A stretch of DNA of 63,995 nucleotides, counting the filler, from Kipferlia bialata (lineage: Eukaryota), in assembly GCA_003568945.1 (NCBI GenBank). It is 5 parts of 5 records of this genome, joined end to end, with 100 filler letters (N's around TTAATTAATTAA, not from the genome) between each part and the next. Parts side by side here need not be neighbours in the genome. Positions count along the whole stretch, not along the records: positions 1 to 15,145 come from BDIP01000736.1; 4 more parts are not named here. One strand, written 5' to 3'. A model generated the notes under the pieces. It was not told where the DNA came from. It searched no databases and worked only from the letters and a program-made list of their open reading frames with translations. The number at the start of each line of letters is the position of its first letter. Position 1 is the stretch's first letter. The translations under genes and the position numbers were made by a program. This document shows positions 48-55,615 of the stretch, one piece after another.

Positions 48-1243
48 GGGAATGGGCTGGAGCAGGCACTGAAGGACATGGTACGGTATCCAACAGACAC
101 CCCTACCTCTCCCCCTATATATATATCTATATGTACTAACCCCCCAGATCGATGCGGGTCTGTGGGGTCTGTATCTATTTGTGACAATATATCTATATAC
201 ATAGAGTATGTATATAGATAGTATGTATACTAACCCAGGTCGATGCCGGTCTGTGGGGTCTGGAGTGTCTGCACCCAGACTACGAGGAGGCACAGACAGA
301 GGTACAGCTAAAACACACTTTGAGACACATATATAGATAATACATATACATAGTGTACATAGTATAGACACCCAGACTATGAGGAGGCACAGACAGAGGT
401 ATAGTAGATAGTATACACACTATTACTCATATATAGTGTAGACCCAGGACATCCACTGATAACCCAGGTGCTGCTCGATGCTGCAGACAGGCACTCCCTG
501 GCCAGGACAGCAGGTGTGGGTGATTATGGTATTGTCTGTTTTCTATATATGCCCTTATAGTCTCTTCCGGTGTCTATATACATACCTGTACCCCTGCCCT
601 TGTCTGACCCCCCCAGGCAGTGACTGTCACGGGTCAAGTCAGCTATTCTCTTACTCACTTTCAGATACCTAGTGTTCGCTCTGTATACATATATATACAT
701 TCACACTCTCTGACCCCAGGCAGTGACTGTCACGGGGCAGGCAAGCCAGGGATAGCACTCGGGAGGGGACAGGTGGGGGGAACCATCATATATGCTATAT
801 ATATATACTATGTATACATTATATGTATATACTGTGTATGTACTAGGGTAGCACTCGGGAGGGGACAGGTGGGGGAATCCAGTACTCACTGAGTGCTATG
901 TTTATATATGTATATGTATACTATGTTCTATAGTATACTGGGATAGCACTCGGGAGTGGACAGGTGAGGGGATTAAGAATATATATATGTGTATATACTG
1001 TGTGTATACAGCGAACTGCCCATTCTATCTAACTCCAGGTCTCCCACCCCTTCTGTGCCCCTGTGGAGTGGGGGCATATATATATAGTCTATATTGTAGT
1101 ATACTGTGTGTTCTATACTATTCTCTATCAATCTACCTCCGTCTTACCCCTAGGTCTCCCACCCCTTCTGTGTCCCAGTCGAGTGGGGCCAGACACTGGT
1201 ACAGGCAGTGCAGGCAGCAGAGACTGAGGGAGCAAGTGCTTAA
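48..1243 (+). CDS. PHP-domain metal-dependent phosphoesterase (YciV/TrpH-like), 3' part, 5 exons visible
   Basis: Spliced exons (48-80, 239-301, 468-513, 720-772, 1154-1243) read GNGLEQALKDM|VDAGLWGLECLHPDYEEAQTE|VLLDAADRHSLARTA|GSDCHGAGKPGIALGRGQ|VSHPFCVPVEWGQTLVQAVQAAETEGASA*. GLxGLE..H and GSDxHG are the C-terminal PHP motifs. Introns are GT-AG. The 5' end lies outside the window. Confidence 0.8.
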
Positions 1244-1619
1244 TGTCAAGTGTAATACTGTAGTACTGTGGGCCGCCTGTTGGTGATGCCTTATGTATAT
1301 TATGTATACAACAGGAGGTCAGGTACAGGCAGTGCAGGCAGCAGAGACTGATGATAGGGTGTAAGGGATGGTTCTGATACTCTGTATGGATGGCATGAGG
1401 TACTGGCAACAGTGCGGACATACGCACTGTAGACCACTATTTGTGGCATTGCATCTATGACCCATGACAACCCTAAGTACTGTTAGGCACGGGAGAGGTG
1501 TGTACCTCTCTACTCTTCGGATAAATGGGTTAGCTTCTACGTGTGGGAGTGTTAACCCCATATAGTGGTGGAGTTCAGACATGGCTTTGAGGGCCACACA
1601 AAAAGTGTGTTAAATTACT

Positions 1620-1760
1620 GCGGATTGCTTGGAGCAATGGTTATCTCGCCATTCGTGGCTAAATTGCTATTGCAATTGCGGTTTCCTTTGGAAACTCTTT
1701 GGATCTGCCGGCTAACCCCGGCCCTGGCCTGAGGTGGTTCGATTCCACCAGTCCGCACCA
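1620..1760 (+). ncRNA. tRNA-like RNA (acceptor, D and T arms plus CCA) with ~85 nt of hairpins in place of a normal anticodon arm
   Basis: GCGGATT(1620) pairs with AGTCCGC, followed by A-CCA(1760). A-box-like TGGAGCAATGG is present. T arm is GGTGG-TTCGATT-CCACC. No canonical anticodon loop could be assigned. Confidence 0.6.
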
Positions 1761-1767
1761 TCTCATT

Positions 1768-1877
1768 GGGTGTGTGGCACATTGCTGGTGTTAGGATCCT
1801 TGTAATTTCGGTGTGAAGGGATTTGAGACTTTTGGCTACCAAGCCCAAAGTTCGAATCCGCTTCAACACACTATTTT
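1768..1877 (+). ncRNA. Second structured RNA candidate ending in a T4 Pol III-type terminator
   Basis: Hairpin TGGCAC-ATTGCTG-GTGTTA, then single-stranded TAATTTCG, then a long bulged hairpin of ~25 bp at 1811-1869 containing B-box-like GTTCGAATCC, then TTTT at 1874-1877. Confidence 0.4.
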
Positions 1878-3681: not shown

Positions 3682-6600
3682 ATGTCTGAGGGCGAGACTG
3701 GGAGGGGGAAGACTTCCCCTCCTGTCAGTATCTTGGCATTGTTTGCCAAACCCAAGAGACGCCAGGGAGGGAGGAAGAGAGAGAGGGAGACACCCCAAGT
3801 AGAGGGCAGAGCTGAGCCGAGAGGGGGAGAGCGAGAGAGAGAGGAGATACCCAAGGAAGCGGGGGGTATTGAGAGGGAGGGAGAGAGAGCGAGAGGGGTT
3901 CGCTCCCCTGTCAATCTCTTGGCACCCTCACCCGATAGAGAACAGGGAGAGAGAGACAGAGAGGAGGGGCAAGAGGGAGGGGTGGTTGCTGAGGCGAGTG
4001 AAGGGAGGGAGAGAGGGAGAGAGAGAGAGGTGGAGTGTGTGTGTCACATGGTCAAGAAAGAGAAGGGTAGTGATGAAGGGAGGGAGAGAGAGAGAGAGGG
4101 TGCCAGGGATCCAGACGGGGAGATTGGCATGATGCTGGACCAGATAGACAGGTACTGATATATACATATATACATATACATATATAGTATATAGTATATA
4201 TATGAATGACAGTCTATGCTATCACTATATATATATATATATATTGATTAGATTGGCATGATGCTGGACCAGATAGACAGGTACAGTTATAGAGTATATA
4301 TAGAGTTAGTACCATATTGACTGGTAGATGGATTAGTGATATATTATGTGAATATTTTATGTAGTTCATTAATACTATTGATACATGCTCTAATCACTAG
4401 GCTGGAGCGTCAGAGGGGTATCATTGCGAGTGGCTTCCTAGAGATGGACCCCAGACTGAGACCTGCCCCATCTAAGCTGAAGGGGAGACTGCTGGACATA
4501 CAGGCACAGCAGGAGGTATATATTGATACGTATACATACAATGATATATATATATATATATGTATGTATATATATATATATGCTACTGTAGTATATATAC
4601 GGATGCTGGACATACAGGCACAGCAGGAGGTATGGATACTACTATCAACCCAGTATTTATATATTATCATACATACTAATGAACGTCGCACTTATGTATG
4701 TCCCTCAGCAACCCAGACTCTTCTTTCTCTCTCTCTTCCACCTTCAGGACCTCAGGCTCAAGATATGGCTCAGAAGGGACCCAGGTAATCTCTCTCTCTC
4801 TCACTCATTCTATCACTCTCACTATCTCTATCTTTCATTCTCAAGATATGGCTCAGAAGGGACCCAGGTGGGTTATATACATTATTATTTCTTGCTTCCT
4901 TACTCTCTCTCTCTTATATCTCTGTCTCATATCTTCTCTCTCTCTCCTCTGACCCTCAGGTGTTGATGCCGTGCACTCTTACTACTACAGCGTCGGAGGG
5001 CCCATCAAGGACCTATGTGTGGTACGTAAACGTATAACATTAAGTTAATATAGAGTGTTTGTGGAAGTTGAGAGTCTGTGTGTGGTATGTGAATGTTAAG
5101 TTTTAAGTGTATATATATAGTATATATATATTGTATGTATCAGAGACCCCATCAAGGACCTGTGTGTGGTACGTGAATGTGTAATAGTTCCATAAACATA
5201 TTCCTCTCATATGATAGGTATGGATAATATTGTATAATTGTTTTAGGCAATTATTGTGTATAATAATTAGTGTAGTTATATATAGTTATATATAGTATAT
5301 CAGTGAGGTAGTCAATGGTCTGTGTGGTATGTAGACTCATAACGTGCTATCCAAATTATCCCAATGTCTTCTGTCCCTCTATGTACTCTGTCACTCCCGT
5401 TCCCCAACCTCATATTGTCATTCTTTCTCTTTCTCTCTCTCTCTCTTTCTATATGTATATAGGTATATTGCCCACCCCAGTGGCCCAACCTCTCTCTCTC
5501 TCTCTCTATATATGTACAAATATAGATATATATATGTATATGTATTTATGTATATATGTATATACATAAGTTGTCCCACCCGAGCCAGCTAACCTGGTCC
5601 GTCGTGTCAACGGCAGTGCCCTCGCCGCCTCTGTCTCTCTCTCTATATTTATAGTTATTATGGTATCTCACCTTAGTTACCTAACCTTGTCCGACGGGTC
5701 AACGGCAGTGCCCAATATACCACAGTGCTGCCCAGACTCATGCAAGCACACTTGTTTGGGAGGTATTGCCATATATGAATTCATATGAGGTGCCAGTAAT
5801 GGAGTCTCCCTTCCCCATCTCACGCCATATGTGTGAAAGATACGTTCTCTCAATATGATGCAGAATTGTAGTACGTCTCCTTTTCCCTCTCTCCAGGTCA
5901 GTAAGCTGTACAGAATCGTTCTCTCTCTCTCTTCATGTGTAAAGCGGTATACATACATATATTTTGCTTTGACCCTCTGACCCCAGCCCTCTCAACCACT
6001 GTCCTGAGTGCGAAGCCAGGGGCAGCAGAGTCATACCGCAGGTGGGTTATCTCTCTCTCTCTGTCTATACTTTGTGTATGTGCTTACCCCAGCTGTCTTA
6101 CTATTGTTGACATTGGATGTATGTGTATGCTTACATTTCTGATCCCAGCTAGTCTTTGATCGAGACTGCAGACGTGTTGTGGGTCTGAAGTGTGTGGGGT
6201 GGAAGGGTCTAAAGAAGGCAGATCTCCTCCCTTGCACTTGGAGTGTCGACATCAACCCAGAGAATGAAGGTATCAGCTTTGATTCACTCTATGAAGCATC
6301 ACCATGTATCATTGTCAGGGACTAACTCAGCAAGGTATTGGTGTGTGTCGCTGCCTGTAGCATCATTGACAGTGTAGTTGTATTCCTCTCTCTCTACGTA
6401 TCAGTTACAGTGTGTGTATTTCCTGTCTCTCTGGTGCTCACTCAGGGGTATTCCTCAGCCGTGGAGTTAGGGACATTGATGGGATACTGGACTCCTTTGA
6501 CAGGTATGGGATATCTATCTATCTATATATATATATATATATATACTCAGTTGTGTGTTCATGTGTAGTATGGAGTGTGGTATAGTTCTCTCCCTTCTTC

Positions 6601-55515: not shown

Positions 55516-55615
55516 NNNNNNNNNNNNNNNNNNNNNNNNNNNNNNNNNNNNNNNNNNNNTTAATTAATTAANNNNNNNNNNNNNNNNNNNNNNNNNNNNN
55601 NNNNNNNNNNNNNNN
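55516..55615. other. Artificial contig linker
   Basis: N44-TTAATTAATTAA-N44. Confidence 0.97.

What the first reader, a model, noticed from the sequence alone, without database searches (positions are those of the whole stretch)
48..1360. Strict polarity of echoes gives nested 'Russian-doll' introns full of decoy splice sites
Seen in the PHP gene and throughout the window: copies holding acceptor plus exon start lie upstream of the intact exon (148, 617, 1039). Copies holding exon end plus donor lie downstream (367, 845, 940). Differences are again mostly synonymous (GCG/GCC, TAC/TAT, CCT/CCA, GTG/GTC, GGG/GGC). An intron therefore reads D1..D2..D3..A2..A1, and only the outermost pair gives an intact mRNA. 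Inference: this requires either strong exon definition or stepwise inside-out (nested) splicing. One echo (~1322-1350) lies beyond the stop codon, so the copying is not strictly tied to splice sites.
Basis: partly seen in the sequence, partly recalled or inferred. Interest (0 to 1): 0.78.

Follow-up and report, generated by a model that had tools for sequence, protein, structure and literature searches.

The report
Introns stacked with spare exon ends
In the free-living protist Kipferlia bialata most introns examined hold partial copies of the neighbouring exon's start or end with splice signals intact; their fixed orientation is what any tandem duplication produces, the cell likely skips them by recognising whole short exons, and their unexpectedly protein-preserving differences likely mean they were captured from diverged working versions of the gene.

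Summary
The echoes are real and the polarity is strict. In three annotated genes (55 introns), 44 of 44 exon-end copies lie downstream, 32 of 32 exon-start copies upstream, and none is reversed. Polarity needs no special rule: it is the geometry of head-to-tail duplication across a splice junction, known as amphioxus 'mirages' and the human F7 VNTR. This scan met such repeats before in other genomes (sea urchin). Nested splicing is disfavoured: inner donors and acceptors are matched in only 4 of 41 introns. Exon definition is favoured: exons are short and uniform, and copies with both sites intact are absent (0 of 59 families, about 21% expected). What is new is threefold. Density: 45 of 55 introns, with intron length about 151 + 109 nt per echo. 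Inner sites: as strong as the real ones, yet spelled differently. Coding signature: pN/pS 0.16 (0.11-0.22) against 0.39-0.47 for dead copies, with no stop codons. Best reading: junction units are turned over by unequal exchange between diverged alleles. No reads or RNA were examined.

The parts
48..80 (+). PHP-family gene, first exon in the scaffold (gene is 5'-partial)
   Evidence: exact spliced match to P0002; weak PHP_C hit, E 0.0064, below the curated cut-off
128..171 (+). acceptor echo of exon 239-301: AG 146-147, exon copy 148-171
   Evidence: acceptor score 10.9 vs 7.7 for the authentic site
239..301 (+). intact exon 2
369..404 (+). donor echo of exon 2: exon copy 369-398, GT 399-400
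   Evidence: donor score 11.3 vs 9.8
468..513 (+). intact exon 3 (no echo found)
603..636 (+). acceptor echo of exon 4: AG 615-616, exon copy 617-636
   Evidence: score 9.9 vs 16.6
720..772 (+). intact exon 4 (GSDCHG motif, aligns weakly with E. coli RNase AM)
846..878 (+). first donor echo of exon 4 (D2): exon copy 846-868, GT 869-870
   Evidence: score 7.8 vs 7.8
940..973 (+). second donor echo of exon 4 (D3): exon copy 940-963, GT 964-965
   Evidence: score 7.2 vs 7.8
1028..1076 (+). acceptor echo of exon 5 (A2): AG 1037-1038, exon copy 1039-1076; D3-A2 would be a 75-nt inner intron
   Evidence: score 16.0 vs 12.2
1154..1243 (+). intact last exon with TAA as annotated
1322..1364 (+). identical 30-nt copy of 1198-1227, running on in frame to its own TAA four codons later; likely a duplicated coding end
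   Evidence: acceptor at 1321-1322 scores -0.4, donor at 1199 scores 8.5
21662..30350 (-). CTP synthase gene: 20 annotated exons (29724-21662) plus an unannotated upstream exon; 32 echoes kept in 19 introns
31643..44928 (-). 893-aa hypothetical gene, 33 exons, 53 echoes kept, arrays of up to 6 donor copies (32718-33432; 39095-39551)

Best explanation
These are partial copies of exon-intron junctions whose fixed orientation follows from head-to-tail duplication, which the spliceosome likely ignores by pairing sites across short exons, and which are likely renewed by unequal exchange between diverged working alleles. Step 1 (geometry, shown; whole-unit repeats seen in 10 arrays): a duplicated unit with one breakpoint in an exon and one in the intron leaves the whole exon on the outside. 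Exon-end copies therefore fall downstream, exon-start copies upstream, and donors precede acceptors inside the intron. Step 2 (selection, inferred): units wholly in coding sequence, units with both splice sites, and acceptor units with a long piece of exon are purged. Step 3 (splicing, inferred): each acceptor pairs with the nearest downstream donor across a roughly 73-nt exon. A lone inner site has no partner, and using one would make an exon of 145 nt or more, so the intron is removed in one step from outer donor to outer acceptor. Step 4 (turnover, inferred): arrays grow and shrink by misaligned exchange in the exon-derived core. Each new unit takes its splice-proximal part, splice signal and intron stub from a junction that was working in another, strongly diverged allele, and then decays neutrally (about 4% so far).
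For: Polarity 44/44 and 32/32, order 27/0. TRF sees 10 junction-spanning arrays as whole-unit repeats, period 55-130, 71-100% matches. Both sites intact in 0 of 59 families vs a 21% share under random placement. Acceptor copies have median 24 and maximum 45 nt, below the 0.5th percentile of a uniform-breakpoint null (29 and 65). Exon + spacing is 145 nt or more in 48 of 48 nearest echoes, while 50 of 52 internal exons are shorter than 145. pS 0.236, pN 0.037, ratio 0.156, family bootstrap 0.11-0.22, vs dead-copy simulations with medians 0.39-0.47 and minimum 0.28. 0 stops among 72 changed codons. Echo-echo ratio at most 0.18. GT/AG bases changed 7 of 148, about the same as pN. Replacement changes are no more conservative than random (p 0.16) and near and far copies are equally diverged, as expected for capture followed by short neutral decay. 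Breakpoints are shared within arrays (mean difference 5.6 vs 12.0 nt, 0 of 5000 shuffles) and differences are denser near the splice site (111 vs 75, p 0.01). Precedents: PMC3087553, PMC1557585. The species is reported as diploid (PMC5874029).
Against: No RNA, reads or second haplotype were examined; a metagenome scan found no relative. Use of the outer sites rests on gene predictions, which favour open frames anyway. Intron-side homology between copies is mostly gone (4 of 74 pairs above the 99th percentile of the null, 1 of 13 even where the exon part is 97% or more identical), so step 4 needs alleles whose introns differ far more than their silent sites (4-fold sites 78% identical). Silent diversity of about 20% with four or more states per codon is not documented for this species. 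Depletion of cryptic partner sites is weak with a position-matched control (donors p 0.01 or 0.18 by threshold, acceptors p 0.34-0.37). The 145-nt floor is post hoc and threshold-dependent (permutation p 0.004-0.65). Full-strength inner sites are also what current use would give.
Confidence: 0.6

Rival explanations
1. Standby copies under indirect selection: the arrays are old, but recombination or conversion promotes echo sequence into the working exon often enough that damaged copies (coding or splice-site) are purged. Polarity and exon definition are as in the best explanation.
For: Same pN/pS 0.16 and strong, differently spelled inner sites. Old-looking intron stubs beside near-identical exon cores. 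Needs no extreme allelic diversity.
Against: It predicts more replacement changes far from the splice site, and none is seen (0.071, 0.055, 0.085, 0.060, 0.075 per codon by distance bin). It predicts conservative surviving replacements, also not seen (p 0.16).
Confidence: 0.22
2. Inner sites are used: introns are removed stepwise (nested inner donor to inner acceptor, or ratchet-type recursive splicing), and that use keeps the inner signals strong.
For: Inner donors and acceptors score like authentic ones (7.9 vs 8.75, p 0.65; 8.9 vs 9.7, p 0.86) while differing in sequence. The D3-A2 segment is 75 nt and stubs cluster at 60-90 nt, like the shortest real introns of 67, 78 and 82 nt.
Against: Numbers of intact inner donors and acceptors match in 4 of 41 introns, 33 have one kind only, and the two kinds do not co-occur (p 0.42). 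Only 7 of 29 exons with acceptor echoes start with GT (14 of 55 overall), so a ratchet donor is usually not re-created. It does not explain codon-level conservation.
Confidence: 0.08
3. Ordinary dead mirages: neutral duplicates whose silent bias comes only from selection on the working exon.
For: Explains polarity and order. Fits the PHP gene alone (5 silent, 5 replacement) and is closer for acceptor copies (ratio 0.25).
Against: Expected silent share 42.5% vs 67% observed, and 63-69% with one echo per family. Simulated pN/pS never fell below 0.28 in 120 runs, against 0.156 observed. Synonymous multi-base switches (Ser AGT/TCA, Leu TTG/CTC and others; 10 cases, 4 of them one shared variant) sit in the echoes.
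Confidence: 0.07
4. Assembly artefact: divergent haplotypes of a heterozygous diploid joined in tandem.
For: Would give silent differences and unrelated intron flanks. The assembly is fragmented with internal gaps. Reads were not examined.
Against: Arrays hold up to 6-7 distinct versions, more than a diploid has. Each filler-to-mid-exon junction is unique sequence that a graph assembler needs from reads (inference). Breakpoints, spacing and polarity are regular.
Confidence: 0.03

Closest known systems
[quoted passage not shown]
   Same: Tandem units spanning a 5' or 3' splice boundary, AG/GT often kept, reported not to disturb splicing, variable copy number attributed to unequal crossing-over; unit sizes overlap (10-160 bp there, 83-194 for 46 of 48 nearest copies here).
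   Different: There the whole unit, intron part included, aligns (81-100% identity). Here the intron stubs are mostly unalignable, with signals re-spelled. There they are reported from a few loci; here from 45 of 55 introns, and they account for most intron length variation. The passages read report no coding-type constraint on the copies.
Human F7 intron 7 37-bp VNTR (PMC1557585, abstract and Discussion)
   Same: Authentic donor followed by functional downstream donor copies; only the most upstream is used.
   Different: One locus, identical donor sites, donor side only, mammalian spliceosome. Here both sides, diverged units, and a lineage with 87 of 174 surveyed spliceosomal proteins (PMC6679479 passages).
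Intron gain by tandem duplication of an AG|GT site (Rogers model; ATP2A1, PMC3265369 abstract and Discussion)
   Same: Same raw process; junctions here are mostly AG|G (30 of 55), so wholly exonic duplications could found introns.
   Different: That model duplicates an exon-internal site, so the new intron begins with a copy of the next exon. The echoes duplicate existing junctions and add no exon. No clear case was found; 1198/1322 has a donor but a poor acceptor.
Nested splicing / intrasplicing / stwintrons and recursive (ratchet) splicing (search listing only, plus general knowledge)
   Same: Strong splice sites inside introns.
   Different: Inner sites are mostly unpaired, do not interrupt outer signals and rarely re-create a GT.

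Membership tests
Mirage / boundary-spanning minisatellite | Repeat unit spans an exon-intron boundary and lies in tandem with it | tested here: met
   77 boundary-touching hits, all in the intron adjacent to their exon
Mirage / boundary-spanning minisatellite | Both 5' and 3' boundaries can be duplicated, AG/GT often retained | tested here: met
   44 donor and 32 acceptor copies; 7 of 148 GT/AG bases changed
Mirage / boundary-spanning minisatellite | Whole unit, intron part included, is alignable between copies | tested here: inconclusive
   10 arrays seen as whole-unit repeats by TRF, none in 48-1360; flank homology clear in 4 of 74 pairs, weak residual overall (p about 1e-4)
Mirage / boundary-spanning minisatellite | Normal splicing unaffected (RT-PCR) | not testable with these tools
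   No RNA examined; gene predictions use the outer sites
Mirage / boundary-spanning minisatellite | Copy number differs between haplotypes or cells | not testable with these tools
   One assembly only; no related locus found
Nested intron / intrasplicing | Inner donor paired with an inner acceptor in the same intron | tested here: not met
   Matched in 4 of 41 introns, one kind only in 33, no co-occurrence p 0.42
Nested intron / intrasplicing | Inner-junction RNA intermediates | not testable with these tools
   No RNA examined
Spliceosomal twin intron (stwintron) | Inner intron interrupts a splice signal of the outer intron | tested here: not met
   Outer GT and AG sites are contiguous in all 55 introns
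Recursive (ratchet) splicing | Inner acceptor immediately followed by GT | tested here: not met
   7 of 29 exons with acceptor echoes start with GT, against 14 of 55 overall
Intron gain by AG|GT duplication | Donor in the first copy and a working acceptor at the same point in the second copy (pair 1198/1322) | tested here: inconclusive
   Donor 8.5, acceptor -0.4 (5th percentile of authentic acceptors 3.8); the annotation reads through

The most novel reading that the evidence does not exclude
Kipferlia runs a genome-wide exon-junction turnover system. Most introns are stacks of spare, still competent exon ends and starts that swap into the working gene by recombination often enough to be held under coding and splicing selection, so that splice junctions are continually replaced and intron length is set by the stack height. 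A minority of inner pairs may also be spliced as 75-nt inner introns.
Probability: 0.3. Interest if true: 0.87.

Novelty: new variant of a known kind. Interest (0 to 1): 0.62.

Why it matters
If the window is typical, most introns of this fornicate contain decoy splice sites as strong as the real ones. That makes it a natural genome-wide test of how a reduced spliceosome (87 of 174 surveyed proteins, snRNAs not identified; PMC6679479) chooses sites by position, and indirect evidence for exon definition in a metamonad. It offers a mechanism for intron growth (about 109 nt per captured unit) and splice-site turnover. It also means that one haploid assembly may archive many diverged alleles of each exon end, which would imply a hyperdiverse, recombining population. 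Practically, the echoes can mislead gene prediction: the CTP synthase model starts just after an echo-filled intron with a GC donor.

Tried and rejected
No whole genome was held, so the tally is window-wide, not genome-wide. No sequencing runs were obtained. A metagenome scan with P0004 found no relative (107 pattern matches, none confirmed). Single-event model (a whole exon inserted into a mid-exon break, leaving complementary acceptor and donor halves): rejected, because the two kinds do not co-occur per exon (17/10/13/12, p 0.58) and their breakpoints are not correlated (p 0.83). Serial snapshots of one evolving exon: rejected, because near and far copies are equally diverged (pS 0.231 vs 0.245). 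Tolerated alternative splicing: only 4 of 69 intact inner sites would give an in-frame, stop-free product, and spacing is not enriched for multiples of three (17 of 74). Echoes as mini-exons: no consistent acceptor at donor-echo starts or donor at acceptor-echo ends (by eye). Pseudo-exon depletion looked significant with a crude control but weakened with a position-matched one. E. coli RNase AM was too distant to define the PHP exons (E 0.008). Rfam found nothing in 1300-2300 or in the whole window. Paper searches listed no description of these repeats in Kipferlia; the library is open-access only and most hits were seen as listings.

Full report
Setting. The window is a chain of eukaryotic scaffolds joined by N-flanked spacers, and no whole genome was held. 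Searches with single exons each returned one protein that the source names as Kipferlia bialata, on contigs as long as the window's scaffolds: CTP synthase (P0001), a 94-aa partial hypothetical protein (P0002) and an 893-aa hypothetical protein (P0004). The published draft genome of this species reports a diploid, 124,912 introns and gene models made with transcript hints (PMC5874029, passages and methods section). It does not use the word 'duplicat-' in its main text. I had no reads or RNA.

Observation. P0002 maps exactly onto exons 48-80, 239-301, 468-513, 720-772 and 1154-1243, the outermost sites. The PHP label is weak but reasonable: Pfam PHP_C E 0.0064, below its cut-off, and a GSDxH motif aligned to E. 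coli RNase AM. Local repeats number 194 pairs in 85 families against 0-5 in five shuffles. In the PHP gene the codon differences are 5 silent and 5 replacement, so 'mostly synonymous' is not true of this gene alone.

Polarity tally. I aligned every exon of the three genes to every intron (55 introns). Of 133 hits, 100 were to an adjacent exon and 33 to distant exons; the latter were mostly GA/CT-rich tracts, in line with a null rate of 20 of 1242. Of the 100, 44 reach the exon's 3' end and all lie downstream, 32 reach its 5' start and all lie upstream, none is reversed, 1 covers a 37-nt exon with the acceptor lost, and 23 touch neither end. Echo hits occur in 45 of 55 introns. Donor copies precede acceptor copies in 27 of 27 pairings. 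Outside these genes a model-free test gave 20 as predicted, 1 tie, 0 against and 12 unclassified of 33 pairs. For the rate analyses I dropped 9 of the 100 hits (1 weak, 8 low-complexity; one of these, at 24495, is a real donor echo and was restored only), leaving 91 in 59 families.

Why the polarity. This follows from geometry. If a segment from mid-exon to mid-intron is duplicated head to tail, the first copy keeps the exon start and the second is a fragment. For a segment from mid-intron to mid-exon the reverse holds. TRF sees 10 junction-spanning arrays as whole-unit repeats of period 55-130, none of them in 48-1360, and copies within an array share their breakpoint. The copy at 1322-1351 fits the same logic at a coding end: it runs on to its own in-frame TAA, and a spliced reading is unlikely because the acceptor scores -0.4. 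Intron length is about 151 + 109 nt per echo (r 0.85).

How splicing likely copes. Inner sites are not decayed. Donors score 7.9 against 8.75 (42 pairs, p 0.65) and acceptors 8.9 against 9.7 (32 pairs, p 0.86), while other intronic GT and AG average -1.5 and -3.4. Using an inner site would nearly always break the protein (4 of 69 in frame and stop-free). Nested removal needs paired inner sites, but of 41 introns with intact ones 33 have one kind only and 4 have matched numbers. In PHP intron 4 the 75-nt D3-A2 piece is of workable size, but its removal leaves D2. Ratchet splicing needs GT at the exon start, present in 7 of 29. Exon definition fits better. Internal exons are 37-156 nt (median 73) and introns 67-970. 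No family carries both intact sites, whereas random placement gives 21%. Acceptor copies carry at most 45 nt of exon. An inner site would give an exon of 145 nt or more in 48 of 48 cases, while 50 of 52 real internal exons are shorter; that last point is post hoc, with permutation p 0.004-0.65. Depletion of cryptic partner sites was weak under a matched control. Precedent: in human F7 only the most upstream of several functional donors is used (PMC1557585, abstract and Discussion).

The real surprise. Over 91 echoes pS is 0.236 and pN 0.037, a ratio of 0.156 (family bootstrap 0.11-0.22; one echo per family 0.15-0.19). Simulations of dead copies beside a constrained exon give medians of 0.39-0.47 and never below 0.28 in 120 runs. 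167 of 255 differences are at third positions and none of 72 changed codons is a stop (92 hits). Echoes differ from each other in the same way (ratio at most 0.18) and include multi-base synonymous switches. The signal is stronger for donor copies (0.13) than for acceptor copies (0.25), and the six PHP copies (0.25, nine differences) are too few to test. Similarity falls sharply at the junction: intron flanks are clearly homologous in 4 of 74 pairs, with only a weak residual overall, yet branch-point and pyrimidine features are kept in different spellings. Replacement sites and GT/AG bases show the same roughly 4% change. Replacements are not conservative, there is no age gradient along arrays, and replacements do not rise with distance from the splice site. 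The simplest reading is that each unit was a working junction in another diverged allele until recently, and was brought in by unequal exchange seeded in the conserved exon core. The main rival is indirect selection on standby copies. Both are inferences; neither allelic diversity nor copy-number variation could be checked (one search found no relative).

Comparison with the known. [quoted passage not shown] Its supplement 4 shows the intron parts aligned across all units. The original Adh3 paper was not read. Two other notes (e1-7810567, e1-9861148) found silent bias no greater than chance or a dead-copy model predicts in other genomes; I applied that null here and it fails. The Kipferlia echoes work like mirages and meet the structural criteria that could be tested. 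They differ in density, in their unalignable intron stubs and in the coding signature. Nine searches listed no report of them in this species; closed-access papers and preprint supplements were not visible.

Verdict. Polarity is ordinary geometry, nested splicing is unlikely as a rule (about 8%), and exon definition is likely. New variant of a known kind; interest 0.62, carried by the density, the full-strength decoys in a reduced spliceosome, and the not fully explained coding-type conservation of untranslated copies.

Noticed in passing
window 1619-1872 (+): Two structured non-coding stretches after the PHP gene. 1620-1760 has tRNA-like ends (closing stem, T-arm-like hairpin, encoded CCA) around a long middle (z -2.6); 1766-1872 is a long hairpin (z -3.3). 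There is no ARAGORN, Rfam, phage or prokaryote-genome match. Candidates for unusual tRNA-like or small nuclear RNAs; snRNAs were reported as not found in this species (PMC6679479).
   Followed up: partly
window 30350-30259 (-): Unannotated CTP synthase exon (tblastn E 2e-5 to PyrG) that ends in a GC donor, while its nearest echo has a GT donor; the database model starts at the next exon.
   Followed up: partly
window 39095-39716 (-): All five donor echoes of one exon encode Glu (two codons) where the working exon has Ala, and they use four different Leu codons at the next position around a 25-nt invariant core.
   Followed up: partly
three annotated genes: Nearest echoes are never closer than 83 nt, and intron stubs cluster at 60-90 nt, the size of the shortest real introns. 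Acceptor copies are shorter (median 24 nt) than donor copies (43 nt).
   Followed up: partly
window 15146-15245, 30383-30482, 45614-45713, 55516-55615: N-flanked stop-codon spacers join separate scaffolds of about 15 kb; two internal N gaps (31908-31963, 33320-33345) fall inside echo arrays.
   Followed up: yes
window 10593-11825 (-) and 18574-19913 (+): Long nearly intron-free reading frames (410 aa; a kinase-like frame with an HRDIRPGN motif) in an otherwise intron-dense window, possibly mobile or recently acquired.
   Followed up: no
window 5460-5713 (+): Acceptor echoes whose 5' part differs from the working exon start, a possible record of a shifted acceptor.
   Followed up: no
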